Origin: Minisyncoccota bacterium
Lineage (GTDB): Bacteria; Patescibacteriota; Minisyncoccia; Phycocordibacterales; UBA9973
Assembly: GCA_041661005.1 (NCBI GenBank)
Contig: JBAZVG010000001.1
Location: 607,515-671,514, forward strand
DNA: 64,000 bases
Direction: 5' to 3'
The notes under the pieces are model-generated. The model searched no databases and was not told the origin of the DNA. It was given only the letters and a program-made list of their open reading frames with translations. This document shows, one piece after another, positions 10,490-63,662 of this stretch. Both the position numbers and the translations under genes were made by a program. Every line of letters starts with the position of its first letter. Positions within the stretch are counted from its first letter, which is position 1.

Positions 10490-10590
10490 GGCGTACTTTT
10501 TAGAAAGCCTTGCGCAGGCTGACGAGCCGAGCAGTTCGCTGGCAAAGCTTTGCCAGATAGATTGCTTTATGAAAAGTATGCCAAGAAAGA
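10490..10590 (-). repeat. intergenic TIR/hairpin repeat family 1, copy A (reverse orientation)
   Basis: Shares ~100 bp with 13517-13609 and 23539-23631; 18-bp terminal inverted repeats; central variable hairpin ctggcaaagctttgccag. Confidence 0.7.
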
Positions 10591-13516: not shown

Positions 13517-13609
13517 ACTCTTTCTTGGCATACTTTTTATAAAGCAATCTATCTGGCGTTGCTACGCCAGCGAACTGCTCGGCTCGTCAGCCTGCGCAAG
13601 GCTTTCTAA
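13517..13609 (+). repeat. intergenic TIR/hairpin repeat family 1, copy B
   Basis: Starts 3 nt after the xth stop; central hairpin ctggcgttgctacgccag (compensatory relative to copies A and C). Confidence 0.7.
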
Positions 13610-14355: not shown

Positions 14356-16041
14356 ATGCAAAAAATTTGCCAGACATGTAAAAAAAATTTTGAAATAAGG
14401 GATGAAGATTTAACTTTTTATGAACAGGTAAAAACTGTTCCCCCACTTGATTGCCCTGACTGCCGTATGGCAAGACGGTTAGTTTTCCGTAACGAGAGAA
14501 CTTTTTATAAAAGACCTTGTGATCTTTGCAAGAAAGACATGATTTCCTTGTATGACGACAAATCGTCCTTTTTGTCATATTGCCACGATTGTTGGTGGAG
14601 CGATAAATGGGATCCAAAAAGTTTCGCCCAAGATTATGATCCGAACAAAACATTTTTTGAACAATTTAGAGAATTACAAAAAAAGGTGCCGAGAATTGGT
14701 TTGATGGTCTTAAATAATGTAAGAAGTGAATACACAAATGGCGCAGCCGAAAATAAAGATTGTTATCTGATTTTTGCCGCTGATTATAATGAAGATTGTC
14801 TGTATGGAAGACTGCTTCAAAGGAATAAAGGATGTGTAGACTGCGCTTTCCTGCACGAATCCGAGCTTTGTTATGAATGTATAGACACTAGAGGATGTTT
14901 CAAATGCATGTTTTGCGAGCAATGCCAATCTTCAACCGATCTTTTATTCTGCTACAACATGCGCAATTCAAATAATTGCATTTTCTGCACGAACGGAAGA
15001 AATGTTTCCAACGCAATCCTTAACGTAAAGTATACAAAAGAAGAATATGAAGAAAAGAAAAAGGAAATCCTTTCCAGTTATGACAGCATCGAGCAAGCGA
15101 AAAAGGAATTTGCAGAACTAAAGAAAAAAACTATTGTAAAATACGCTTCACAAACCAAATGCCACAATGTGACTGGCAACTATTTACATAACTGCCATCA
15201 AGGAATAATGCTCTATGACACTTACGACTCAAAAAATTGTTCTTACATGACGGACACAGAAAATCCGACAGATAGCATGGATTGCAATAATTTTTACTAT
15301 AAATCAGAATTTTGTTATAACGTTATGGGGTCAATCCAAATGAGTAAAGTTAAAAATTGCGCATTCGGTTTTTACTCAAATGAAACAGAATATTGCGAAA
15401 ATTGTTACAACCTGACAAGTGCATTTGGATGTTCCGCTATTCGTAAAGGTGAATATATGATTTTGAATAAACAATATTCTAAGGAGGAATACTATGAACT
15501 TAGAGCAAAAATTGAAGAGAGTATGAGAAAAGAAAATGTTTACGGACAATTTTTTCCAGCCAGTCTAGCCCCTTTCGGATATAATGAGACACTTGCACAC
15601 GAATATTTCCCTCTAACTAAAGAAGAAGCGCTTAAAAGAGGTTTCAGATGGCAAGAAAGAACTACCGGCACCTACGGTAAAGAAACAATCAAAGAAAATG
15701 ATATGCCGAAGACTATCGGAGAAGTCACTGAAGATATTTTAAACCAAGTTTTGGTGTGTAAAGACTGCAAAAAGAATTTTCGCATCACAAAATCCGAATT
15801 GGACTTTTATAAAAGAATGAACATCCCCCTTCCCCACAAAGATTTCGAATGCCGACATCAAGATAGGATGAAGAAACGCAATCCACGTAAACTTTGGCAC
15901 AGAAAATGCATGAAAGAAGGTTGTCAAAATGAATTCGAAACCTCCTACTCCCCCGACCCGCGCTACGCCGAAGGCTCCGGCGAGGCGAGCCGTCCGGAGA
16001 TAGTGTATTGCGAGACTTGCTATCAGCAGGAAGTGTATTAA
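14356..16041 (+). CDS. cysteine-rich protein with homologous N- and C-terminal zinc-ribbon modules (paralog of 59195-60916)
   Basis: 561 aa; ~50 Cys; modules CxxCKKxFxIxxxDLxFYxxxxxPxPxxCxxCR at both ends; central CxxC repeats; shared C-terminus ...KLWHRKCMxxGCxNEFETSY...RPEIVYCxxCYQQEVY. Confidence 0.6.
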   Translation: MQKICQTCKKNFEIRDEDLTFYEQVKTVPPLDCPDCRMARRLVFRNERTFYKRPCDLCKKDMISLYDDKSSFLSYCHDCWWSDKWDPKSFAQDYDPNKTFFEQFRELQKKVPRIGLMVLNNVRSEYTNGAAENKDCYLIFAADYNEDCLYGRLLQRNKGCVDCAFLHESELCYECIDTRGCFKCMFCEQCQSSTDLLFCYNMRNSNNCIFCTNGRNVSNAILNVKYTKEEYEEKKKEILSSYDSIEQAKKEFAELKKKTIVKYASQTKCHNVTGNYLHNCHQGIMLYDTYDSKNCSYMTDTENPTDSMDCNNFYYKSEFCYNVMGSIQMSKVKNCAFGFYSNETEYCENCYNLTSAFGCSAIRKGEYMILNKQYSKEEYYELRAKIEESMRKENVYGQFFPASLAPFGYNETLAHEYFPLTKEEALKRGFRWQERTTGTYGKETIKENDMPKTIGEVTEDILNQVLVCKDCKKNFRITKSELDFYKRMNIPLPHKDFECRHQDRMKKRNPRKLWHRKCMKEGCQNEFETSYSPDPRYAEGSGEASRPEIVYCETCYQQEVY

Positions 16042-16921: not shown

Positions 16922-18631
16922 TCATTTCCGCACTCCATGTTTGGTATGTAACTTTTCCACCTCTTTTTCTTCGAGCTCTTCTTTTTTTTCTTTTCCTTTA
17001 TCCCCAAGCGCTTTGAGCTCTTTGTCACTGAGTTTGTCAAAAGATTTCACTAATTCAGACAATTTTTCTACTGTATTTTTCTCTGGATTATCTAAAACTT
17101 CTTCTAGTAAAGCATGCAAGATCCACCCCATTCTGGGTCCCGGCTTGATTCCAAGCTCTTTTATCATGAATTCCCCATTGATTTTCAGCTGTCCGACAGA
17201 AATAGGGTCTCGAAGCGCCTCTTCAATCATTGCAAAATACTTGCGCAAGCGATATGGCGCTTCTTTTTTCTTCATTCCTACCCTGTCGCACTCACGGACA
17301 TTCATCAAAAGCCAAATATTATCCACGCCGACTTTTGTAATAATCCTACGCACAGCAGAAAGTGTGATTAATTCTGTATCTGAAAAAAACATATGGTTGC
17401 GAACAAGTTTTTCCACAAGATCAATTTCTTTTTTGGGAAATTTCAATCTCTCCATTATTTTTTTTACCATTCGCGCGCCGACAACTTCATGGCCGTAGAA
17501 AGTATATTTTTTCTTTGAAGCCTGCCTCGACAAAAATTCTGGGAGCCGTATCGGTCCCCTGTCCTCTTGACTCCAAGGGCGAAGGCGGGAGAATTTTTCG
17601 GTCGGGGCAGGCGAAAAAATTCGTCTTGTTTTCGGCTTGCCGATATCGTGAAAAAGCGCAGAAAGCCTTATTTCTAAAGGCCAATTCTTGTCTGCGGCAT
17701 GTTGTAGGGCATGAAGCAAATGATCCCAAACATCATAAATATGCTCGCCTAATTGTTCACACCTTATCCCCTCTTCTAATTCCGGAATTATATTTTTTAA
17801 CAATCCAAATTTTTGCAACATTAAAATTCCACTCGCAGGATTTTTAGACATTATTATTTTTACAAACTCATCACGAATTCTTTCCTCAGATATTTTTTTT
17901 ATTAAATCAGAATTTTTTAAAATACTTTCTGTTGTGAGATATGACACAGAAAAATCAAGTTGACAAGCAAAGCGAACAGCGCGCAACATTCGCAGAGCAT
18001 CTTCTTGAAATCTTTCATCCGGCTCCCCTACTGCTCTTAATGTTTTACTCTCAATGTCCTTTATACCACCAAACAGGTCAATAACATGTCCGTTATCTTG
18101 TCCTTGATGCCTGCCCGCCGTAGATTTAGCGGAGGCGGGTCCTTTATCTATCCGAAGAGCTAGAGCATTGACCGTGAAATCACGTCTCTTAAGGTCATCT
18201 TCTAGTCTAGTACTGAATCTAATTTCATCGGGGTGTCGGAAGTCGCTATATTTTGCTTCAATTCTATATGGTGTAACTTCAATAATGCTATATTCTGATG
18301 TTGTTTCACGAATAACGTCACCCGGAGATGTTTCTCGTGAAACATCCGTCTTGTTTGTTTCACGCGGAACGTCCTGAGTATGCCCGAAAGATGAAACGCA
18401 TACACCAACAGTACCAAAGGTATTTTCATAGATAGTCTTTTTAAAAAGACCCATAATCTGATCTGGTTTAGCGTTTGTTGTAACATCCCAATCGTTCGGT
18501 TTTCTAGACATTATAAGATCACGAACACAACCACCAACTAGATATGCTTCAAAACCAGCTTTTTCAAGCACACTAGTTACATGTGAAACTTCTTTAGGTA
18601 TCTTTTCGATGATATTTTTAAGATTAGTCAT
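16922..18631 (-). CDS. cca: CCA tRNA nucleotidyltransferase / poly(A) polymerase family with HD domain
   Basis: GGCVRDLIM...DWDV head domain and a C-terminal HD domain; contains an in-frame repeat insertion (see 18297-18380). Confidence 0.85.
   Translation of the reverse strand: MTNLKNIIEKIPKEVSHVTSVLEKAGFEAYLVGGCVRDLIMSRKPNDWDVTTNAKPDQIMGLFKKTIYENTFGTVGVCVSSFGHTQDVPRETNKTDVSRETSPGDVIRETTSEYSIIEVTPYRIEAKYSDFRHPDEIRFSTRLEDDLKRRDFTVNALALRIDKGPASAKSTAGRHQGQDNGHVIDLFGGIKDIESKTLRAVGEPDERFQEDALRMLRAVRFACQLDFSVSYLTTESILKNSDLIKKISEERIRDEFVKIIMSKNPASGILMLQKFGLLKNIIPELEEGIRCEQLGEHIYDVWDHLLHALQHAADKNWPLEIRLSALFHDIGKPKTRRIFSPAPTEKFSRLRPWSQEDRGPIRLPEFLSRQASKKKYTFYGHEVVGARMVKKIMERLKFPKKEIDLVEKLVRNHMFFSDTELITLSAVRRIITKVGVDNIWLLMNVRECDRVGMKKKEAPYRLRKYFAMIEEALRDPISVGQLKINGEFMIKELGIKPGPRMGWILHALLEEVLDNPEKNTVEKLSELVKSFDKLSDKELKALGDKGKEKKEELEEKEVEKLHTKHGVRK
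18297..18380. repeat. GTTTCACG / CGTGAAAC palindromic repeat family 5, three tandem units in frame in cca (encodes VPRET...VSRET...VIRET)
   Basis: tgtttcacg x2 plus palindrome gatgtttctcgtgaaacatc; the same core recurs at 19163-19190 and 19381-19400. Confidence 0.5.
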
Positions 18632-18641
18632 TCAATTTTTG

Positions 18642-18715
18642 TGCACCCGGGGGGAGTCGAACCCTCAACGACCGCTTCGAAGGCGGGTATGATATCCATT
18701 TCACTACGGGTGCAA
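18642..18715 (-). tRNA. tRNA, probably Arg (anticodon TCG), non-canonical
   Basis: Cloverleaf with acceptor GCACCCG/CGGGTGC, T-loop TTCGACT, anticodon loop CTTCGAA; one mismatch each in the anticodon stem (27:43 C.T) and the T stem; no encoded CCA. Confidence 0.5.
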
Positions 18716-18894
18716 AATTATTTAATAATCAGTTAATTATACACTAATTCGAAAAATCCACAAATAACTCTTATTTTACAAGCCAATTAAGGAATTGCTT
18801 TAGTTCAAAAAAAATATTATAATCAAAGCACATTTTTATTTTAGGAAAAGAATTTAAAATGTTTTTATTGTTCCTTGTTACATAAATAAATTTT

Positions 18895-18965
18895 GCGGTC
18901 ATCGATTAATGGTAGGTCAGGACATTGCCAATGTTCAGGTTGGAGTTCGATTCTCCATGGCCGCA
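18895..18965 (+). tRNA. tRNA-Gly (GCC)
   Basis: Acceptor GCGGTCA/TGGCCGC, anticodon stem GGACA/TGTTC with loop TTGCCAA, T arm TGGAG-TTCGATT-CTCCA. Confidence 0.7.
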
Positions 18966-19162
18966 CAAAGTGATGTCCTTTATAAATTTTCGGTGATATC
19001 TTGAAAAATAAGCTTTTATTCTAAACTGTGGATAACTATGTTGGTAATGTTTATAAAGGACACATTCAGAGTTTGTCTTTAAAGTACTTTTTTGACTAAA
19101 ATACGTTGCAAAATAAGGATACCCGCCTTGCCGTCGAGGCAGGTTTCAATAAAAGACACTAA

Positions 19163-19190
19163 ATTTCAAGTATTTGTTTCACGTGAAACA
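19163..19190. repeat. perfect 28-bp palindrome tatttgtttcacgtgaaacaaata (family 5 core) just upstream of yraN
   Basis: Seen directly. Confidence 0.45.
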
Positions 19191-19203
19191 AATACAATAA
19201 TAA

Positions 19204-19629
19204 ATGCCAAAAGTATTTACCTCAGAAACACAAAAGATAGGAGAAATAGGTGAAAATATAGCCGTAAAGTTTCTCATGAAACGTGGTTTTTCTATACTGG
19301 ATCGTAATTACACGAAGAAATGGGGAGAAATAGACATAATAGCCGAGAAATCAAATAAACTCTATTTCATCGAGGTTAAGAGTGTTTCTCGTGAAACACT
19401 AAATACTTTTATTCCAAAATCTTTTAGTGACTCTGATGAAAGATATGAACATAGACCAGAAGATAACATGCATCCGTGGAAATTAAAAAGAATGGCGCGA
19501 ACAATCCAAACTTATATTTTATCTAAAAATCTAGATGAAAGAGAATGGCAAGTAGATTTGTTGGTTGTTTATTTATGTAAAAAAGAAAAGATGGCAAGAG
19601 TAAAAGTAGTAAGTGATATTATTTTATAA
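19204..19629 (+). CDS. yraN: YraN-family (UPF0102) endonuclease-like protein
   Basis: GEIGENIAVKFLMKRGFSILDRNYTKKWGEIDIIAEKSNKLYFIEVKS matches the YraN core; contains a family-5 palindrome at 19381-19400. Confidence 0.7.
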   Translation: MPKVFTSETQKIGEIGENIAVKFLMKRGFSILDRNYTKKWGEIDIIAEKSNKLYFIEVKSVSRETLNTFIPKSFSDSDERYEHRPEDNMHPWKLKRMARTIQTYILSKNLDEREWQVDLLVVYLCKKEKMARVKVVSDIIL

Positions 19630-19651
19630 AGACATTTTTAGCGATAATTTG

Positions 19652-19725
19652 TGGTGCGGGATAGGAGAATCGAACTCCTGTCCACAGTTTGGAAAACTGT
19701 TATTTTACCATTAAACTAATCCCGC
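19652..19725 (-). tRNA. tRNA-Gly (TCC) with encoded CCA
   Basis: GCGGGAT...anticodon loop TTCCAAA...GGAGTTCGATTCTCC...ATCCCGCACCA. Confidence 0.85.
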
Positions 19726-19729
19726 AATG

Positions 19730-19800
19730 TCGGGCCGCTGGGAATTGAACCCAGTCTAAATGCTCCCAAAGCACTTGTACTACCGGTATACTACGGCCCG
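19730..19800 (-). tRNA. tRNA-Pro (TGG)
   Basis: CGGGCCG acceptor, anticodon loop TTTGGGA (G37), T arm CTGGG-TTCAATT-CCCAG. Confidence 0.8.
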
Positions 19801-21307: not shown

Positions 21308-23527
21308 TTGTGTTATATTTCAAGTGTGACCACAGACACACAACATTTTTTTGGACTAAACAATAAACAAAAAGAAGCGGCGATGCACATAAGCGGTCCG
21401 CTTCTTATTATTGCAGGGGCGGGTGCGGGAAAAACTAAAACAATAACGCATAGAATTGTGAATTTGATAAAAAACGGAGTCGCCCCAGAGAGAATTTTAG
21501 CGGTTACGTTCACAAATAAAGCAGCAAAGGAAATGCGGGAACGGATTATCGCTGAAATTAAGAAAAATTCCCACGAAGCAGGGGGCCAAGAAAAAACCCC
21601 ATTCGTCAGCACGTTTCATTCATTGGGGGTCTATATCATAAAAGAAAATGCCAGATTGCTGGGATTAACCAAGCACTTTACGATTCTAGATGAAGGAGAC
21701 GCGACATCACTCATAAAAGAAATACTAAAGGAGTTAGGAATAGATCCGAAACAATATGATCCAAAAAAAATAAAAAATATAATATCTCGCGAAAAAGGAA
21801 AATTCACACATTTGTCAGACTATGCAGAGAGGGAAAGGGGAACATATGGTTTGATGGTAACGCAAGTTTGGGGTTTATATGAAAAACAAAAAATGAAAGA
21901 AAATTCGCTAGACTTCGATGATCTGCTTTTAAAGGCGACGAAATTGTTAAAGGACAATCTGGAAATAAGGAAAATTTATCAGGAGAAATGGGAATATATT
22001 CATATCGATGAATATCAAGACACAAATGAGGTGCAGTATTTGATGTCTAAAATGTTAGCGGAAAATAATGAAAATATCTGCGTAGTTGGAGACGCAGACC
22101 AAAACATCTACTCCTGGCGCGGAGCAAATTTGAAAAACATTTTAAGTTTCGAGAAAGATTATCCGAGTACAAAGATAGTTTTATTAGAAGAGAATTACAG
22201 ATCAACTCAAAACATCTTGGAGGCGGCCAATGTGGTAATTAAAAAAAACAAATACAGGCCAGACAAGAATTTATTCACAAAAAACAAAACTGGCGAAAAA
22301 ATAGGCCTATATGAAGCACTCGATGAAAGCGATGAGTCTGATTTTGTCGCGACAAAAATTCTAGAGATTTTAGATGGCTCGCCTGCGAGAGAAATATCCT
22401 CGGACTCACCACGAAAATTTTCTGCTGAAAATTTTCTCTGTCCGTCGTCGCCACTCCTACCAAGGGTTCCCTCGAGGACATTTCTCTCTTCGGCTGATAA
22501 CGCAGTAAGTTTCCTTGAGCGGGGTGTCTCGCAGGCTGACGAGCCGAGAGGCAGCGCTCCGCGAGCGCGCGGAGACAGCGACCCCGCTGAGACAGCACCT
22601 GCTCCCTTGTCCGAAATCGCTATATTATATCGCGCTAATTTTCAGTCGCGGGCGCTAGAAGAAGCAATGCTGAAATACAATATCCCATATCAAGTTTTGG
22701 GCGTTAAATTTTTCGAAAGACGTGAAATAAAAGACACCTTGGCATATCTTCGCGCAGCGCTAAACCCCGACAGTTTGTCGGACATAAAACGAATAATTAA
22801 TTTCCCTGCGCGAGGTATCGGCAAGGTTACTTTGGCTAAAATTTTTGCCGGACAAAAAGAAAACTTGCCAATTAAGGTAAAAATTAAAATAAATAATTTT
22901 TATAAAATATTAGAAGAAATAAAAGAAAAAATAGAAAGCGAAAAAGCAAGCAAAGCGATAAAATTTGTAGTAAAAAGGTCAGGCATCGAGACAGAACTCT
23001 CATCTGGCACCGAAGAAGATATGGAGAGGTTTGAAAACATAAAAGAACTCGCCACACTAGCGCTAAAATATGATAATCTGGAGAATGGTCTTGGTGTAGA
23101 AAAGCTTTTAGAAGACGCCTCACTCGCGTCAGATCAAGATTCACTGATTATCAGCGAACCCGCCTCCACCAAAGGCTTCGGCGAGGCAAAGGAAAAAAAG
23201 AAAGGAGAAAACTCTGTGAAATTAATGACCGTGCATGCTTCAAAAGGATTGGAGTTTAAGTATGTCTTTGTTGCCGGATTAGAGGATGGACTTTTCCCCA
23301 ACCAAAGACGCAACGAAGAAGTGGATAAGGATAGTGAAGAAGAGCGTAGACTTTTTTATGTGGCGATCACTCGCGCTAAAGAAAAATTATTCTTATCGTT
23401 CGCGAATTTCCGCACCATCTTCGGAGCGCGCAACATCAACGCTCCATCAGAATTTATATCGGACATACCAGCAGATTTATTGGAAAAAGAGGGAGAAAAA
23501 GATAGAATAAAGACAATTTATATATGA
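21308..23527 (+). CDS. uvrD: ATP-dependent DNA helicase UvrD/PcrA family
   Basis: LNNKQKEAAMHISGPLLIIAGAGAGKT (motifs Q/I); motifs through VI present; carries a ~220-bp in-frame repeat insertion; TTG start. Confidence 0.88.
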   Translation: MCYISSVTTDTQHFFGLNNKQKEAAMHISGPLLIIAGAGAGKTKTITHRIVNLIKNGVAPERILAVTFTNKAAKEMRERIIAEIKKNSHEAGGQEKTPFVSTFHSLGVYIIKENARLLGLTKHFTILDEGDATSLIKEILKELGIDPKQYDPKKIKNIISREKGKFTHLSDYAERERGTYGLMVTQVWGLYEKQKMKENSLDFDDLLLKATKLLKDNLEIRKIYQEKWEYIHIDEYQDTNEVQYLMSKMLAENNENICVVGDADQNIYSWRGANLKNILSFEKDYPSTKIVLLEENYRSTQNILEAANVVIKKNKYRPDKNLFTKNKTGEKIGLYEALDESDESDFVATKILEILDGSPAREISSDSPRKFSAENFLCPSSPLLPRVPSRTFLSSADNAVSFLERGVSQADEPRGSAPRARGDSDPAETAPAPLSEIAILYRANFQSRALEEAMLKYNIPYQVLGVKFFERREIKDTLAYLRAALNPDSLSDIKRIINFPARGIGKVTLAKIFAGQKENLPIKVKIKINNFYKILEEIKEKIESEKASKAIKFVVKRSGIETELSSGTEEDMERFENIKELATLALKYDNLENGLGVEKLLEDASLASDQDSLIISEPASTKGFGEAKEKKKGENSVKLMTVHASKGLEFKYVFVAGLEDGLFPNQRRNEEVDKDSEEERRLFYVAITRAKEKLFLSFANFRTIFGARNINAPSEFISDIPADLLEKEGEKDRIKTIYI
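22389..22486. repeat. TIR-bounded repeat family 2 (reverse orientation) inserted in frame in uvrD
   Basis: Termini gagaaatatcctcggac ... gtcctcgaggacatttctc; core gacggacagagaaaattttcagcagaaaattttcgtggtgagtccgag shared with 24020-24133 and 56167-56256. Confidence 0.7.
22521..22585. repeat. palindromic repeat family 3 (GGGGTGTCTCGCAGGCTGACGAGCCGAG...GGAGACAGCGACCCC) in frame in uvrD
   Basis: Shared with 62263-62327 and 62690-62754 (reverse); inner stem ctccgcg/cgcggag. Confidence 0.7.
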
Positions 23528-23538
23528 AACTCTTTCTT

Positions 23539-23631
23539 GGCATACTTTTTATAAAGCAATCTATCTCCGCAAGCTTGCGGAGCGAACTGCTCGGCTCGTC
23601 AGCCTGCGCAAGGCTTTCTAAAAAGTACGCC
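23539..23631 (+). repeat. intergenic TIR/hairpin repeat family 1, copy C
   Basis: Starts 12 nt after the uvrD stop; central hairpin ctccgcaagcttgcggag. Confidence 0.7.
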
Positions 23632-38844: not shown

Positions 38845-38975
38845 AATTCCAAAACTTGTTGCAGGTGTAGTTTTAGATAGACATTGCGCAGGCTGTCGAG
38901 CCGAGCATAGCAAATTTTCAGCAGAAAATTATGTCGTGTCTAGATAAAACTATACCAAGAAAGAGTTTTGGAATT

Positions 38976-58922: not shown

Positions 58923-58995
58923 GCGCCCGTAGCTCAGTCGGTAGAGCAGATCCCTTTTAAGGATAAGGTCGTTGGTTCGATCCCAACCGGGCGCA
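58923..58995 (+). tRNA. tRNA-Lys (TTT)
   Basis: GCGCCCG acceptor, D arm GCTC-AGTCGGTA-GAGC, anticodon loop CTTTTAA, T arm GTTGG-TTCGATC-CCAAC; 27:43 G.A mismatch. Confidence 0.8.
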
Positions 58996-59194
58996 CAAGA
59001 TTAGAAAACATTCAAACTGCTTTGAATTTTTCTAACTTGTGCGAGACGGAGACATGTTTTACTAGCAAGTAAAACTGTTGAGTCAGGGTCGTGAAAATTT
59101 TGTTTTGTCGAAAACAAAATTATTCCTGACCACAGGGAAGTTCTCGGTTTTGTTTTATAAGTATGTTTTGTCCTTAACCCCGACAGGAATCGAA

Positions 59195-60916
59195 TTAATA
59201 CACCTCCTGTTGATAACATTTTACACAGTAAACTATTTCTGGTCGCTCGGGTGCATAGGAAGTTTCAAATTCATTGGTACAGCCCTTATTCATACATTTT
59301 CTGTGCCAAAGTTTCCAGGGTAGGGTTTTCTCTAGTCTAACGAAATAGCGACAATTGGGGCAAAGACTTGGAATCGGTAAATTCATACGTTTATAAAATT
59401 TTAACTCATCGGGCATAATACGAAACGCTTTTGTGCATTGATGGGTGCATGAACCCTCATGCTCGCATTGAATAGTTTCTTTTAAAATATCTTCAGTTAC
59501 TTTAGAAATATCGTCTGCAATATCAGTATTTTTAATTGTAAATTTATAATCACGACCGACATCATCAAACCATTGATACCCCTTTTTTAATGTTTTTTCT
59601 TTTGATAATGGAAATTGTTCGTATGCCATTGTTTCATTATATGTAAAAGACGAAAGTTCTATTGGAAAAAATTCTCCAAATTTATATTTACAGCCATTTT
59701 TATCTATGTATGGCATATCTTTCATTTGTTTTTTTATTTTTTCTAATAAGAATTCGTATTCTGCTTTAGTATATTGTTTATTAAAAATGCAATTATCTAT
59801 TGAATCCAAACCAATGCAACCCAAATTATTTTTCACATTATTACAAGAATGACAATAATATGACTGCATGGTGTTCCAAGAACAAGAGACAAAACCAATT
59901 TCATAGTTACCTCTCCCGCTACAGATTGATTCGTACATTCGTTCTCCTCTCCCTGAATCAAGCATATCGTATGAATCGTTTGAAGAATTTACAGAATAAG
60001 TAACATAACGGATATTTTCTGAATTCCAAACATAAAATGATGAAAGACAATTTTTAGAATTTTCTATAAAATTTCCAGTGCAATCTTGTGCATTTATAAG
60101 TGTGGCGAAAGGAACAATAGTATTTGCTATTAATTTGTCGTATTCATTGGTAAGTTTTAATAAAGATGAACGAGATGAAATTTTTTCTTTTTTTATTGCT
60201 TCTTTGTATGCTTCTTTTGAAAGTTGCTCATTTCTAAATACGTAATTACGATTACGCTGGTTTGAAGACATAAAACAGTTTTGGCAATTCACACAATTAA
60301 AAAGAAATTTTGAATCAATACACTGATGGCATTTTGTTAAGTAAGAGCATTCATAATTATCATTTGAATCAACAGCTTCATAGCATAATTCATTGCCTTT
60401 AAAAATAAGCGAATCAAAACAGTTTTTATTATTTTTGTTTACAAAAGTTGAATAGTAAACGTGTTCTGAGGTAGTAACATTGTAAGATAAATATATATCT
60501 GAGCTTGAATATGTATAGTTAGCGTATTCACATTTCTCACCGTTACTGTTTGCCTGCTCAATGCAAAGTTGGGGAACTTTTCTTTTTAATTTTTCAAATT
60601 GGGTAAAAAAATCAACCGAAAAATCATAATCTAACCAGTAATCAAGAGGATTAAAATTATCAGAAAAATAACATTCAAGACACCAAACAGTGTAGGGTGC
60701 ATCTGCTCTATAAATTGAAACAATTTTATTCTTGCAATTATCACATTTTCTATTATATAAACTACGCACGTTAAAAGTTGCCATGCGACGTTGCAATCTA
60801 CACTCCGGACAGAAAGTTGGCGGAGGCATTTTTATCCTTTCATAAAAAGAAAAATCCTCTGGTTCTATGGTGAAATCTTTTTTGCAGTTTTGGCATATTT
60901 TAGTTTCAGATTGCAT
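59195..60916 (-). CDS. cysteine-rich zinc-ribbon protein, paralog of 14356-16041
   Basis: 573 aa; same N- and C-terminal modules and identical C-terminal end RPEIVYCxxCYQQEVY. Confidence 0.6.
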   Translation of the reverse strand: MQSETKICQNCKKDFTIEPEDFSFYERIKMPPPTFCPECRLQRRMATFNVRSLYNRKCDNCKNKIVSIYRADAPYTVWCLECYFSDNFNPLDYWLDYDFSVDFFTQFEKLKRKVPQLCIEQANSNGEKCEYANYTYSSSDIYLSYNVTTSEHVYYSTFVNKNNKNCFDSLIFKGNELCYEAVDSNDNYECSYLTKCHQCIDSKFLFNCVNCQNCFMSSNQRNRNYVFRNEQLSKEAYKEAIKKEKISSRSSLLKLTNEYDKLIANTIVPFATLINAQDCTGNFIENSKNCLSSFYVWNSENIRYVTYSVNSSNDSYDMLDSGRGERMYESICSGRGNYEIGFVSCSWNTMQSYYCHSCNNVKNNLGCIGLDSIDNCIFNKQYTKAEYEFLLEKIKKQMKDMPYIDKNGCKYKFGEFFPIELSSFTYNETMAYEQFPLSKEKTLKKGYQWFDDVGRDYKFTIKNTDIADDISKVTEDILKETIQCEHEGSCTHQCTKAFRIMPDELKFYKRMNLPIPSLCPNCRYFVRLEKTLPWKLWHRKCMNKGCTNEFETSYAPERPEIVYCVKCYQQEVY

Positions 60917-61232: not shown

Positions 61233-63662
61233 TTGATGTCCAATATACGCAAGAGTATTTTTAGATTACAGAAGCCATGGGAGCCAAGTGGTGACCAACC
61301 AGAGGCTATTTCAAAGCTTGTGGAGGGACTTGAGAAGGGGATGAAAAAGCAGACATTACTCGGGGCGACAGGCACGGGCAAGACTTTTACGATGGCAAAT
61401 GTGATAGCGCGATATAATAAACCAACTCTAGTAATAGCGCACAACAAAACTCTAGCAGCGCAACTCGCGCAGGAGTTTAAATTATTTTTTCCAGATTCCG
61501 CGGTGCATTATTTTGTTTCTTATTATGATTATTATCAGCCAGAGGCTTATATGCCTGCCTCAGATACTTACATTGAAAAAGATGCATCTATCAACAAAGA
61601 AATAGACATGCTTCGTCACGCTTCTACTCAAGCGCTACTCACTCGTCCGGATGTCATTATTGTGGCTTCTGTGTCTTGCATTTATGGATTGGGGTCGCCC
61701 GAGGAATATGAAAAGGTAAATCTGAAATTAGAAGTTGGGCAGAAGGCAGACCGAATGTCTCTGATGAAATCTCTCATTGCTATACATTTTGAACGCACAA
61801 ACGCTGATCTTACCCCTGGAACTTTTCGCTCTATTGGTTCACGAGTAGAGTTAATGCCGGTTTCTGAATCGGTAATGTATCAGATTGAAATGTCGGGTGG
61901 AATAATTTCTAAAATAACAAAAGTTGATCCAGTTTCTTCACATATTCTCAAAGAAGAAAAAAATATTTTTGTTTTTCCGGCTAAACATTTTATTACTGAA
62001 GATATAAAAAAGAAAAAAGCGTTAGTAGAAATTAAAAAAGAATTAGCGAGTCAGCTGAAAAAATTTACAAAAGAGGGAAAACTTCTAGAAGCAGAGCGAA
62101 TAAAACGTCGTACAAATTATGATCTCGCAATGATCAAAGAAGTCGGTTATTGTAGTGGAATTGAAAATTATTCTAGACATTTGTCCGGCAAAAGCGAAGG
62201 AGAACCCCCAGAAACTTTGCTTTCTTATTTTCCGCACACAGGAGCCAGTAATTTTCTTTTCCGGGGTGTCTCGCAGGCTGACGAGCCGAGAGGCAGCGCT
62301 CCGGAAGCATCCGGAGACAGCGACCCCGAAAAAGAAGAATTACTGGCTCCTGTTCCGGATTTTTTAACCATCATCGACGAATCGCATGTAACCTTACCTC
62401 AACTTCAAGGTATGTATGCAGGGGATGCTTCACGCAAGAAAACTCTCGTAGATTATGGTTTTCGTCTACCTTCTGCTAAAGACAATAGACCCCTAAAATA
62501 CGAGGAATTTCAGGAACGCATCGGACAGGTGATTTACACGAGCGCGACCCCAAGTGAACAAGAAAGAAGCCAAAGTGAACAAATCGTAGAACAAATAATT
62601 CGTCCGACTGGGCTTGTGGATCCGGAAACGGTAGTGCGTCCAGTATCTGAAGGAAAAATTTTGGGTAATGGCGAGAAATCTTCTTTTTTGGGGTCGCTGT
62701 CTCCGCGCACTCGCGGAGCGCTGCCTCTCGGCTCGTCAGCCTGCGAGACACCCCAAAAAAGAAATTTCTTTCCATACCCAGGACAGATTTCAGACTTTAT
62801 AAGTGAAGCAGAAAAAACTATCAAGAAAGGTTTTCGTGTTTTAGCTACGACGCTGACTAAAAAAATGGCGGAAGATCTAACCACTTATTTAAAAGAACGT
62901 GGATTCAAAGCTGAATACTTACATTCTGATATCAAAACAATGGAACGCATTAAAATACTTACTAGGTTTAGACGTGGAGGAAAAGGGGAACTTGCCCCGT
63001 CCCAAGCCGGAGGCTTTGGTGCGGGGTTTGATGTTTTAGTTGGAGTGAATCTTTTGCGTGAGGGGCTTGATTTGCCGGAAGTTGCGCTGATTGGCATTCT
63101 CGATGCTGACAAAGAAGGATTTCTACGTTCCGATACAGCGCTCATTCAAACTATCGGCCGAGCTGCTCGCAATAGTGAAGGCAAAGTAATTCTTTATGCA
63201 GATGTTTTGACGGGTTCAATGGAGCGGGCTCTGGGGGAGACCGTTCGCCGTCGTAATATTCAGCTTGCCTACAACAAAAAGCATGGCATTACCCCGAAGA
63301 CTATTATGAAAAAGATCAAAGATATTACTGAAGAAATGGAAAGCGAACATGGAAAAACTGTCAATGCAGAATTGGCGCTTGATTTAGAAGTCTTTAAAAA
63401 AGCTTATTCTAAAGAACTTAGTAAAGACCTGCCTCGACTAGGCAAGGCGGGCGAAAACCTTGCCCGCAAAAAAGTAAACTCTGAATTTTGGAATGAAATT
63501 CTATCAGATGAAGAAAGGGGAAATCTCATTTATGAAAAAATAATAAAGATAAAAGAACGCGAGATGAATAAAGCAGTTAAAGAATTGGATTTTGAAACAG
63601 CTGCGATTTTGCGTGATGAAATTGGAGTGCTCAAAGTGCGTTTGGAAAAGAAAGATCAATAA
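61233..63662 (+). CDS. uvrB: excinuclease ABC subunit B
   Basis: Helicase motifs (GATGTGKT), beta-hairpin, C-terminal UvrB/UvrC interaction domain; two in-frame family-3 repeat insertions. Confidence 0.92.
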   Translation: MMSNIRKSIFRLQKPWEPSGDQPEAISKLVEGLEKGMKKQTLLGATGTGKTFTMANVIARYNKPTLVIAHNKTLAAQLAQEFKLFFPDSAVHYFVSYYDYYQPEAYMPASDTYIEKDASINKEIDMLRHASTQALLTRPDVIIVASVSCIYGLGSPEEYEKVNLKLEVGQKADRMSLMKSLIAIHFERTNADLTPGTFRSIGSRVELMPVSESVMYQIEMSGGIISKITKVDPVSSHILKEEKNIFVFPAKHFITEDIKKKKALVEIKKELASQLKKFTKEGKLLEAERIKRRTNYDLAMIKEVGYCSGIENYSRHLSGKSEGEPPETLLSYFPHTGASNFLFRGVSQADEPRGSAPEASGDSDPEKEELLAPVPDFLTIIDESHVTLPQLQGMYAGDASRKKTLVDYGFRLPSAKDNRPLKYEEFQERIGQVIYTSATPSEQERSQSEQIVEQIIRPTGLVDPETVVRPVSEGKILGNGEKSSFLGSLSPRTRGALPLGSSACETPQKRNFFPYPGQISDFISEAEKTIKKGFRVLATTLTKKMAEDLTTYLKERGFKAEYLHSDIKTMERIKILTRFRRGGKGELAPSQAGGFGAGFDVLVGVNLLREGLDLPEVALIGILDADKEGFLRSDTALIQTIGRAARNSEGKVILYADVLTGSMERALGETVRRRNIQLAYNKKHGITPKTIMKKIKDITEEMESEHGKTVNAELALDLEVFKKAYSKELSKDLPRLGKAGENLARKKVNSEFWNEILSDEERGNLIYEKIIKIKEREMNKAVKELDFETAAILRDEIGVLKVRLEKKDQ
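62263..62327. repeat. palindromic repeat family 3 copy in frame in uvrB (encodes GVSQADEPRGSAPEASGDSDP)
   Basis: Inner stem ctccgga/tccggag, compensatory relative to the uvrD copy. Confidence 0.7.
62690..62754. repeat. palindromic repeat family 3 copy, reverse orientation, in frame in uvrB (encodes GSLSPRTRGALPLGSSACETP)
   Basis: Inner stem ctccgcg-cact-cgcggag. Confidence 0.7.

What the first reader, a model, noticed from the sequence alone, without database searches (positions are those of the whole stretch)
14356..16041. Large cysteine-rich protein with matching N- and C-terminal zinc-ribbon modules (copy 1 of a paralogous pair)
The 561-aa protein carries about 50 cysteines. The N-terminal module CQTCKKNFEIRDEDLTFYEQVKTVPPLDCPDCRMARR is repeated near the C-terminus as CKDCKKNFRITKSELDFYKRMNIPLPHKDFECRHQDRM. 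The middle is a run of CxxC/NCxFC repeats spaced ~15 aa apart. The C-terminal 40 aa are nearly identical to those of ORF 59195-60916. I cannot assign it to a named family. Its size, duplication and metal-binding potential mark it as a lineage-specific family worth characterising.
Basis: seen in the sequence. Interest (0 to 1): 0.6.

Follow-up and report, generated by a model that had tools for sequence, protein, structure and literature searches.

The report
Zinc-capped cysteine-ladder solenoid protein family
The two genes are old paralogues of a very large, uncharacterised protein family found only in the tiny-celled Patescibacteria: two zinc-finger pairs cap a narrow repeat coil whose core is lined with cysteines, and what the protein does is still unknown.

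Summary
The ORF at 14356-16041 (561 aa) has 37 cysteines, not about 50. That is 6.6%, against 0.57% in the rest of the window. It is 37% identical over its full length to ORF 59195-60916.

The N-terminal cysteine module recurs at the C-terminus as a whole ~80-95 aa unit. Each unit holds two treble-clef zinc fingers, one zf_Tbcl-like and one CxxC-x17-CxxC. Only these 16 terminal ligand positions are conserved, which gives four predicted zinc sites.

The middle cysteines are not obligate metal ligands. They sit at fixed positions of a 12-residue repeat and swap with Ser/Val/Ile/Leu in paralogues, so they line a narrow duplicated beta-solenoid core.

The family has about 5,400 clusters at 50% identity. 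In the loci examined it is confined to Patescibacteria, always about 550-600 aa, unnamed, and without a solved structural counterpart. Genomes carry several old paralogues (about 40% identity), often in head-to-tail arrays of up to 7.

Within orthologue groups the solenoid is the most conserved part. Between paralogues it is the most divergent.

Best reading: a cytoplasmic adaptor with a common zinc-finger handle, possibly nucleic-acid-binding, and a paralogue-specific recognition surface. The function is inferred, not shown.

The parts
14356..16041 (+). p1: 561-aa member of the family (conserved single-copy orthologue type)
   Evidence: ORF. Orthologues at 68-91% identity. Synteny with L001-L003. 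AF2 pLDDT 86.7, pTM 0.87.
14362..14481 (+). N-terminal finger 1 (residues 3-42), zf_Tbcl-like treble clef; ligands C5, C8, C33, C36; Arg-rich helix follows
   Evidence: The four Cys are invariant. Hairpin plus helix in the model. PF13451 matches 41/81 members at E<=0.1.
14506..14601 (+). N-terminal finger 2 (residues 51-82), CxxC-x17-CxxC; ligands C55, C58, C76, C79
   Evidence: Spacing read directly from the sequence. Cys conserved 99-100%. PF23477/TIGR04272-type.
14710..15033 (+). Solenoid half 1 (residues 119-226): nine 12-residue coils with small residues (Cys/Ser/Val) at registers 1, 4, 7, 10
   Evidence: Homologous to half 2 (hhalign 99.7%, E 1.4e-25). In the p2 model, 4-residue strands every 6 residues at pLDDT 93-95.
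15034..15129 (+). Helical hairpin between the two solenoid halves (residues 227-258)
   Evidence: DSSP helices 228-238 and 242-256.
15130..15471 (+). Solenoid half 2 (residues 259-372), coils of 10-15 residues, ending in the ILNKQYxKEEY cap
   Evidence: pLDDT 89-98, strands 270-369. Repeat layout.
15472..15750 (+). Cap helix and family-wide conserved linker motif (residues 373-465; G397 F399 P401 S405 Y409 N410 W432 conserved in at least 90% of members)
   Evidence: pLDDT 94-98.
15751..15870 (+). C-terminal finger 1 (residues 466-505); ligands C468, C471, D496 (Cys in other subfamilies), C499
   Evidence: Pfam zf_Tbcl E 0.015 at 465-504.
15895..16029 (+). C-terminal finger 2 (residues 514-558); ligands C518, C523, C552, C555
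   Evidence: Invariant Cys. Weak LIM/CRP-like alignment.
15958..15990 (+). 33-bp GC-rich in-frame insertion (PRYAEGSGEAS) in the loop of the last finger, unique to this copy
   Evidence: Absent from all aligned homologues, including the 91%-identical P0001. pLDDT <50 at 536-544. A related 16-mer lies at 23172-23187.
59195..60916 (-). p2: 573-aa paralogue with the same architecture and all 16 terminal Cys ligands
   Evidence: AF2 pLDDT 88.2, pTM 0.89. Orthologues at 64-86% identity.
60662..60901 (-). p2 N-terminal double-finger module (residues 6-85)
   Evidence: Alignment with p1. Model.
59777..60547 (-). p2 duplicated solenoid core (residues about 124-380)
59207..59473 (-). p2 C-terminal double-finger module (residues 482-570)

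Best explanation
p1 and p2 are two ancient paralogues of a Patescibacteria-specific family of soluble cytoplasmic proteins with one fixed architecture. The order is: double treble-clef zinc-finger module, duplicated narrow beta-solenoid, conserved linker motif, second double treble-clef module.

Shown:
- Four Cys4-type sites are conserved at the two ends. One is Cys3Asp in the p1 lineage.
- The many other cysteines are small core-filling residues of a 12-residue coil. They are interchangeable with Ser/Val/Ile/Leu.
- Genomes keep several old paralogues, often in tandem arrays.
- Within an orthologue group the solenoid is the best-conserved part. Between paralogues it is the most divergent.

Inferred mechanism:
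- The protein is a rigid adaptor.
- The two mildly basic, Arg-bearing zinc-finger pairs and the 395-435 motif form a handle common to all paralogues. The handle docks on one shared partner, most likely a nucleic acid or a nucleic-acid-handling machine. In one clade this could be the adjacent TraD/VirD4-like ATPase that carries the same finger.
- The solenoid surface of each paralogue recognises its own evolutionarily stable client.
For: Architecture and duplications:
- AF2 models with pTM 0.87 and 0.89.
- hhalign E 1.4e-25 for the two solenoid halves and 5e-23 for the two zinc modules.

Zinc sites:
- The 16 terminal ligand positions are invariant or nearly so.
- The fingers match PF13451 and PF23477/TIGR04272 in many members.
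- Small proteins with the CxxC-x17-CxxC domain were shown to bind zinc by ICP-MS (PMC12704099).

Core cysteines:
- Cys swaps with Ile/Val/Leu/Ser between subfamilies.
- Small residues sit at registers 1, 4, 7, 10.
- There is no excess of all-Cys coils.

Cytoplasmic location:
- The first finger starts at residue 5.
- The maximum Kyte-Doolittle value over 19 residues is below 1.0.

Family size and range:
- 5,373 clusters at 50% identity; the 150 best listed are about 430-610 aa, mostly 545-600.
- 559 or more loci in species-representative genomes; of the 80 fetched, nearly all are titled as Patescibacteria lineages.

Arrays of old paralogues:
- 49 of 80 loci hold 2-7 copies.
- Median identity within a locus is 41%.

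Handle-plus-specificity pattern:
- Solenoid 1 majority fraction is 0.87 and 0.89 within the p1 and p2 orthologue groups, against 0.64 and 0.62 across paralogue types. The fingers score 0.80-0.83 within those orthologue groups.
- Domain lengths are nearly constant.

Nucleic-acid hint:
- Finger modules have pI about 8.5.
- R37, R500, R504 and R516 are conserved in at least 90% of members.
- The long TraD/VirD4-like ATPase carrying zf_Tbcl_2 lies 2-86 bp from a family member in 9 of 12 cases (10 of 12 counting one with a 205-bp gap).
- The ATPase gives sub-threshold NCBIfam matches to DNA-translocating CedD and TraD.
Against: - No experiment or recognisable homology assigns any activity.
- Net charge of the finger modules is only +3 to +4, and the whole protein has pI about 6.7.
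- Treble-clef and LIM-like fingers often bind proteins rather than nucleic acids.
- The ATPase link is clade-restricted. Among 80 metagenome loci centred on that ATPase, only about 11 have a family member nearby. The window has no such ATPase and no TrmB-like regulator.
- The orthologue versus paralogue conservation contrast used mixed paralogue sets as the comparison group.
- No coordinates were available, so I could not check which repeat positions are surface-exposed.
Confidence: 0.4

Rival explanations
1. A purely protein-binding scaffold or self-assembling structural element. The homologous N- and C-terminal double fingers act like LIM domains. They mediate head-to-tail or partner contacts, so that different paralogues co-assemble into rods or filaments.
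For: - Weak LIM resemblance: Pfam LIM E 0.008 in P0083, PDB CRP1 E 0.12.
- Rigid solenoid with nearly constant domain lengths.
- Homologous modules at both ends.
- MreB lies within a few genes of the arrays in several loci.
Against: - All LIM matches are below threshold, and the spacing differs from LIM.
- MreB proximity occurs only in one syntenic clade.
- There is no evidence of oligomerisation.
Confidence: 0.25
2. Substrates or effectors handed to a TraD/VirD4-type coupling ATPase for export. They would be recognised through the invariant C-terminal tail (...CYQQEVY-COOH).
For: - Tight, same-strand adjacency to the coupling-protein-like ATPase in one clade (gaps of 2-86 bp).
- Very conserved extreme C-terminus.
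- Multi-copy arrays.
Against: - The reciprocal test shows most such ATPases have no family member nearby.
- Paralogues are old and orthologues evolve at housekeeping rates (70-76% against 65-88% for neighbouring genes). The solenoid surface is conserved within orthologue groups. This is the opposite of what arms-race effectors show.
- No other secretion-channel genes were seen next to the arrays.
- Four structural zinc sites make unfolding for export costly.
Confidence: 0.08
3. An enzyme whose active site lies on the solenoid, by analogy with left-handed beta-helix acyltransferases or gamma-carbonic anhydrases.
For: - Top Foldseek PDB hits are GlmU, LpxA, LpxD and gamma-carbonic anhydrases (E 4e-4 to 1e-2).
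- Conserved acidic positions D162 and D309 at equivalent places in the two halves, plus the near-invariant E174 in half 1.
Against: - TM-scores are 0.12 or lower with rmsd 9-16 A. The p2 model gives no hit below E 0.03.
- The period is 12, not 18, and there is no hexapeptide Pfam hit.
- No invariant His.
- Keeping 5-10 divergent paralogues of one enzyme in a genome of about 1 Mb is unlikely.
Confidence: 0.07
4. A metal, Fe-S or thiol-redox protein that uses the middle cysteines. An example motif is C181-x2-C184-x2-C187-x2-C190 in p1.
For: - 21 non-finger cysteines in p1.
- CxxCxxCxxC strings arise on the ladder. Positions 202/205/208/211 are Cys in 76-91% of members.
- The family could hold a sizeable share of all encoded cysteine in a proteome with 0.57% Cys.
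Against: - The ladder cysteines exchange freely with Ser/Val/Ile/Leu/Met.
- C187 is Cys in only 43% of close p1 orthologues.
- 38% of members lack any all-Cys coil, and the observed frequency equals the position-wise null.
- No ferredoxin or radical-SAM Pfam match.
Confidence: 0.07

Closest known systems
Stand-alone zf_Tbcl + zf_Tbcl_2 proteins of Firmicutes and gut phages (e.g. WP_187028406.1, 92 aa, Pusillibacter faecalis; 'putative zinc-ribbon domain protein' of Siphoviridae)
   Same: - The same two-finger unit in the same order covers 95% of the 86-aa module.
- Foldseek probability is 0.99 over 95 columns to a phage protein of this kind.
   Different: - These are 77-164 aa proteins without any solenoid.
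- Their function is also unknown.
- In two records the gene follows a sigma-70-family factor gene.
CxxC-x17-CxxC domain (TIGR04272 / PF23477 zf_Tbcl_2), e.g. Methanosarcina mazei small proteins A00184 and A01980
   Same: - p1 has exactly C55-x2-C58-x17-C76-x2-C79.
- Zinc binding was shown by ICP-MS for members of the domain family (PMC12704099).
   Different: - p1 and p2 themselves do not reach the model thresholds.
- The archaeal proteins are single-domain small proteins.
LIM-domain proteins (e.g. CRP1/CRP2)
   Same: - Two consecutive zinc sites with eight ligands form one module.
- There is a weak alignment of WH-x-C...C...YCxxCY.
   Different: - The module is 75-95 aa with 18 residues between the sites, whereas LIM is about 55 aa.
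- Scores are below Pfam's threshold (16.8 against 22.9 bits).
- LIM is eukaryotic.
Left-handed beta-helix (hexapeptide-repeat) proteins: GlmU, LpxA/D, gamma-carbonic anhydrase
   Same: Parallel beta-solenoid with small residues in the core. These are the best PDB Foldseek hits.
   Different: - 18-residue triangular coils, against 12-residue coils here.
- TM 0.12 or lower.
- No hexapeptide signature and no trimer-interface catalytic His.
Insect antifreeze protein of Tenebrio type (PF02420)
   Same: 12-residue coils rich in Cys, Ser and Thr. Four of 81 members give weak Pfam AFP hits (best E 0.063).
   Different: - The insect protein is secreted and disulfide-bonded (from my own knowledge, not tested here), about 80-140 aa, and binds ice.
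- The family here is cytoplasmic, and its cysteines are replaceable by Val/Ile/Leu.
Expanded 'common handle + variable recognition domain' families (F-box proteins, PPR/PUF proteins): functional analogy only
   Same: Many old paralogues per genome, a shared conserved module, and a repeat domain that is conserved within orthologues and divergent between paralogues.
   Different: No sequence or fold relationship. Different kingdoms. The analogy rests on inference.

Membership tests
zf_Tbcl (Pfam PF13451, 'probable treble clef domain') | Score at or above Pfam's gathering threshold (24 bits) | tested here: not met
   p1 scores 15.7 bits (E 0.015) at 465-504. p2 has no hit. Relatives do pass (P0083, 26.0 bits). 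41/81 members match at E<=0.1.
zf_Tbcl (Pfam PF13451) | CxxC knuckle in a beta-hairpin, a short helix (FY), and a second CxxC at the start of a helix (treble-clef topology) | tested here: met
   AF2/DSSP gives E2-4, E11-13, H16-24, H34-42, with C5/C8 and C33/C36 at the expected places. The p2 model shows the same.
CxxC-x17-CxxC domain (TIGR04272 / PF23477 zf_Tbcl_2) | CxxC-x17-CxxC spacing | tested here: met
   C55-x2-C58-x17-C76-x2-C79 in p1 and C58-x2-C61-x17-C79-x2-C82 in p2. The C-terminal copy is C-x4-C ... CxxC.
CxxC-x17-CxxC domain (TIGR04272 / PF23477 zf_Tbcl_2) | Score at or above the curated threshold (27 bits Pfam, 36 bits NCBIfam) | tested here: not met
   No hit for p1 or p2. The best family member, P0140, scores 26.2 bits against a cut-off of 27. 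27/81 members match at E<=0.1.
CxxC-x17-CxxC domain (TIGR04272 / PF23477 zf_Tbcl_2) | Zinc binding | not testable with these tools
   Shown only for M. mazei small proteins (PMC12704099).
LIM domain (PF00412) | About 55-aa double finger C-x2-C-x16-23-H-x2-C-x2-C-x2-C-x16-21-C-x2-C/H/D above the Pfam threshold | tested here: not met
   Best score 16.8 bits against a cut-off of 22.9. PDB CRP1 E 0.12. The two sites are 18 residues apart and the module is 75-95 aa.
Left-handed beta-helix / hexapeptide-repeat transferases | Hexapeptide repeats forming 18-residue coils, with superimposable fold | tested here: not met
   Period is 12. No Hexapep Pfam hit. Foldseek TM <=0.12 with rmsd 9-16 A. No hit with E<0.03 for p2.
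Insect antifreeze protein repeat (PF02420) | 12-residue TCTxSxxCxxAx repeats in a secreted, disulfide-bonded protein | tested here: not met
   Only 4/81 members match, best E 0.063. No signal peptide: the first finger starts at residue 5. The cysteines are replaceable by Val/Ile/Leu.
Ferredoxin-type 4Fe-4S proteins | Conserved CxxCxxCxxxC(P) ligand set | tested here: not met
   The p1 string is CxxCxxCxxC without Pro. C187 is Cys in only 43% of close orthologues. No Fer4 Pfam match. All-Cys coils occur at the chance frequency.
Known anti-phage defence proteins (PADLOC) | Match to any PADLOC model | tested here: not met
   No family at E<=1.

The most novel reading that the evidence does not exclude
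The family is a previously undescribed class of client-recognition proteins, and the narrow 12-residue, cysteine-lined beta-solenoid may itself be a fold type not yet represented in the PDB. Each reduced genome would keep a set of 5-10 rigid readers. Every reader would be dedicated to a different conserved nucleic acid or protein client. All would dock through the same double treble-clef handle, possibly onto DNA- or RNA-handling machines such as the TraD/CedD-like ATPases that carry the same finger.
Probability: 0.15. Interest if true: 0.8.

Novelty: new variant of a known kind. Interest (0 to 1): 0.6.

Why it matters
Patescibacteria have tiny genomes of about 1 Mb and few paralogous expansions. 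Yet many of them keep 5-10 copies of this 1.7-kb gene, which by rough estimate is 1-2% of coding capacity and perhaps a tenth or more of all encoded cysteine. About 5,400 sequence clusters are known, and none has a function or a family model.

A family this large and this uniformly built, and under the purifying selection seen here, is likely to serve a core process of this uncultured radiation. Its fixed architecture gives clear experimental handles:
- zinc stoichiometry;
- partner pull-downs;
- solenoid swaps between paralogues.

The work also explains the cysteine richness without invoking extra metal sites.

Tried and rejected
- **Whole-protein family searches.** Pfam, NCBIfam and PADLOC gave only sub-threshold finger hits or nothing. 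PHROGs gave one weak hit to a family of unknown function (phrog_15341, E 5e-4, residues 143-367), which was not pursued.
- **PDB by sequence.** Nothing significant, either with the single protein or with the profile.
- **Phage origin.** No relative in GenBank phages or IMG/VR contigs.
- **Fifth metal site in the solenoid.** Rejected by the substitution pattern and a shuffling test.
- **General functional link to the TraD/VirD4-like ATPase.** It looked strong in loci chosen for the family. The reciprocal scan showed it is confined to one clade.
- **TrmB-like regulator.** It sits divergently upstream in 9 adjacencies but is absent from the window.
- **Source lookup.** Exact look-up of p1 found no record.
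- **Literature.** Searches for the Pfam names, for cysteine-rich or zinc-finger families in Patescibacteria, and for beta-helix proteins found no description. [quoted passage not shown]
- **One stray annotation.** One IMG name, 'ERCC4-type nuclease', is attached to P0033. No ERCC4 family appeared in any Pfam scan of the family, and P0033 was among the 81 members scanned.
Full report
**1. Observation**

- The window holds ORF 14356-16041 (+, 561 aa; 'p1') and ORF 59195-60916 (-, 573 aa; 'p2').
- They align end to end: 37% identity, E 5e-125.
- tblastn finds no third copy in the window.
- p1 has 37 cysteines and p2 has 36, not about 50.
- This is still extreme: 6.6% and 6.3%, against 0.57% in the other 44 ORFs of at least 150 aa (binomial P about 5e-27).
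- The C-terminal tails are about 80% identical. In p1 the tail is interrupted by an 11-residue, GC-rich insertion (residues 535-545) that none of 80 aligned homologues has. Even P0001, at 91% identity, lacks it.

**2. Anatomy**

*Terminal modules*
- The N-terminal module is repeated at the C-terminus as a whole unit. Residues 4-83 align with 467-558 (hhalign probability 99.5%, E 5e-23).
- Each unit has two zinc sites.
- Site one is CxxC-x24-CxxC with an intervening 'FY' helix. The second CxxC opens an Arg-rich helix, which is treble-clef topology in both AF2 models.
- Site one resembles Pfam zf_Tbcl. p1 is below threshold (15.7 bits), but 41 of 81 members match at E<=0.1 and some pass the threshold.
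- Site two is exactly CxxC-x17-CxxC, the zf_Tbcl_2/TIGR04272 type.
- Small archaeal proteins made of that domain bind zinc, as shown by ICP-MS (PMC12704099).
- The same two-finger unit exists as stand-alone proteins of 92-93 aa in Oscillospiraceae. Foldseek also finds matching 'zinc-ribbon domain' proteins of 77-164 aa in gut phages.
- The 16 ligand positions are the only cysteines conserved across the family, apart from C208, C350 and C359.
- In the p1 orthologue group one ligand is invariably Asp (D496).

*Middle region*
- The middle is an internal duplication. Residues 128-240 align with 275-388 (hhalign 99.7%, E 1.4e-25).
- Residues 124-226 form nine exact 12-residue repeats.
- Across 149 diverse members, registers 1, 4, 7 and 10 hold small residues, mainly Cys, Ser and Val.
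- In the p2 model this half is predicted at pLDDT 93-95 as 4-residue strands every 6 residues.
- In the p1 model the second half is the confident one, at pLDDT 89-98.
- Each half ends in an '(I/L)xNxxYxKEEY' cap followed by a helix.
- A linker motif at 395-435 is as conserved as the fingers.

*General properties*
- Domain lengths hardly vary across the family.
- There is no signal peptide and no hydrophobic segment.

**3. Why so many cysteines**

- Between the p1-type and p2-type subfamilies the middle cysteines swap with Ile, Val, Leu, Met or Ser.
- Cys occupancy at ladder positions ranges from 4% to 91%.
- A coil with all four inward positions Cys occurs in 62% of members. Shuffling residues within columns predicts 59 +/- 3%.
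- The cysteines therefore behave as small core residues of a very narrow solenoid, not as a conserved extra metal site.
Individual members could still bind something there.

**4. Family**

- Each paralogue finds more than 5,700 relatives among the scored candidates. All are 'hypothetical' or 'zinc-binding domain-containing'.
- An exhaustive profile search finds 5,373 clusters at 50% identity, of which 2,216 have E<=1e-30. The 150 best listed are about 430-610 aa, mostly 545-600.
- In species-representative genomes there are at least 559 loci.
- The 80 loci fetched come from Nomura-, Paceibacter-, Staskawicz-, Lipton-, Peregrini-, Peri-, Gracili- and Abawacabacteria. A further group is labelled Saccharibacteria. 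Three contigs carry proteobacterial labels, and at least L050 shows typical family context, so they are probably mis-binned.
- No relatives occur in phage collections.
- No solved structure resembles either model beyond a generic solenoid likeness (TM <=0.12).
- No paper in the searchable library describes the family.

**5. Genomic organisation**

- In the 80 loci (+/-6 kb), 49 contain 2-7 copies, almost always head to tail.
- Copies within a locus are 29-63% identical, median 41%, so the arrays are old.
- Several assemblies contribute 6-7 or more copies from two or three loci.
- p1 belongs to a single-copy orthologue type with conserved synteny: exonuclease III ... p1 ... CCA-adding enzyme. 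It evolves at the same rate as its neighbours, 70-76% against 65-88% identity.
- Two neighbours recur.
- The first is a divergent TrmB-like regulator: 12 loci, 9 adjacencies.
- The second is a soluble TraD/VirD4/HerA-like ATPase: 18 loci, 13 adjacencies.
- The long form of that ATPase (about 700-860 aa) carries a zf_Tbcl_2 finger where it could be detected. It lies 2-86 bp from a family member in 9 of 12 cases, and within 205 bp in a tenth.
- The reciprocal scan of 80 metagenome loci centred on that ATPase found a family member nearby in only about 11, all close relatives of the query.
- The link is therefore clade-restricted.
- Neither neighbour is present in the window.

**6. Functional inference**

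- Within the p1 orthologue group the best-conserved domain is solenoid 1 (mean majority fraction 0.87, against 0.80-0.82 for the fingers).
- The p2 group gives the same result: 0.89 for solenoid 1 and 0.85 for solenoid 2, against 0.81-0.83 for the fingers.
- Across paralogue types the solenoids and the hairpin are the least conserved parts (0.47-0.64). Registers 5, 6 and 8 show the largest contrast.
- This fits a common handle (the fingers plus the 395-435 motif) joined to a paralogue-specific but evolutionarily stable recognition surface.
- It argues against arms-race roles such as effectors or immunity sensors. PADLOC also finds nothing.
- Several hints suggest the handle touches nucleic acid or a nucleic-acid machine:
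  - the fingers are mildly basic, pI about 8.5;
  - several arginines are conserved in at least 90% of members;
  - the same finger sits on DNA-translocase-like ATPases;
  - the stand-alone module lies next to a sigma-factor gene.
- These hints are suggestive only.
- I put about 0.4 on the adaptor model as a whole. Roughly equal shares within it go to a nucleic-acid partner and a protein partner.

**7. Comparison and novelty**

- The finger domains are members, or near-members, of known families of unknown function.
- The solenoid fails the tests for hexapeptide LbetaH, insect antifreeze repeats and ferredoxin motifs.
- The whole architecture has no family model.
- I rate it a new variant built from known kinds of parts, with unknown function.
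- Interest is moderate to high because of its size, uniformity and copy number in minimal genomes.

**8. Side observation**

- The p1-specific insertion (nt 15958-15990) is one of many short GC-rich islands in this 39% GC window.
- An 18-nt core, GCAGGCTGACGAGCCGAG, occurs 7 times where 0.01 is expected. Three copies lie inside ORFs, including two in inverted orientation within uvrB.
- A relative of the p1 insert lies at 23172-23187.
- This resembles the selfish palindromic elements reported to insert in-frame in Rickettsia genes. That comparison is from my own knowledge and was not tested here.

Noticed in passing
window 15958-15990 (inside p1); related 16-mer at 23172-23187: p1 carries a 33-bp in-frame insertion (PRYAEGSGEAS; about 78% GC measured on 15955-15990, in a 37% GC gene). 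It lies in the loop of its last zinc finger and is absent from all 80 aligned homologues. A 1-mismatch copy of its core, AAGGCTCCGGCGAGGC, lies inside ORF 21308-23527.
   Followed up: partly
window 10514-10531, 13578-13595, 22531-22548, 23590-23607, 38888-38905, 62273-62290, 62727-62744: The GC-rich 18-mer GCAGGCTGACGAGCCGAG occurs 7 times on both strands, where 0.01 is expected. Some copies are intergenic. Others lie inside ORFs: two inverted copies about 450 bp apart in uvrB (61233-63662), and one in ORF 21308-23527. They look like small selfish palindromic elements inserted in frame. The window has about 48 such GC-rich islands.
   Followed up: partly
window 16922-18631 (-) and 61233-63662 (+): The CCA-adding enzyme and UvrB translations contain odd Gly/Pro/Arg/Ser-rich stretches (e.g. 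'GVSQADEPRGSAPEASGDSDPE'). In UvrB these coincide with GC-rich islands, which suggests tolerated in-frame insertions in housekeeping genes.
   Followed up: no
L102-L160 (metagenome loci): In many Patescibacteria contigs a pair of TraD/VirD4/HerA-like soluble ATPase genes sits in tandem: one of about 450 aa, followed by one of about 560 aa with a C-terminal CxxC-x17-CxxC finger. No member of the cysteine-rich family is nearby. This looks like a conserved two-ATPase module of unknown role.
   Followed up: partly
L161 4995-5273 (NZ_AP023421.1) and L162 6507-6788 (MT837064.1): A 92-93 aa stand-alone protein made of the same two fingers lies directly downstream of a sigma-70-family factor gene in two Oscillospiraceae-type records. 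The position suggests a sigma-associated partner.
   Followed up: partly
L162 (MT837064.1, 'UNVERIFIED: Bacteriophage sp.'): This 7.8-kb 'phage' record encodes a phosphoglucomutase-like protein, a sigma factor and the zinc-finger protein. No phage genes were seen in the part read, so it looks bacterial rather than viral.
   Followed up: no
L007, L050, L075: Contigs labelled Azospirillum, Burkholderiales and Gammaproteobacteria MAGs carry this family. L050 also has the typical Paceibacteria gene context (TraD-like ATPase, DnaJ). The contigs are probably mis-binned.
   Followed up: no
L072 987-1538 and neighbours: ORF6N-domain (KilA-N-like) genes are interspersed on the opposite strand between copies of the family within one array. 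This hints at mobile-element activity inside an array.
   Followed up: no
window 18641-19800 and 58923-58996: tRNA genes (Arg-TCG, Gly-GCC, Gly-TCC, Pro-TGG) cluster next to the CCA-adding enzyme gene, two genes from p1. tRNA-Lys-TTT lies 200 bp from the 3' end of p2.
   Followed up: no
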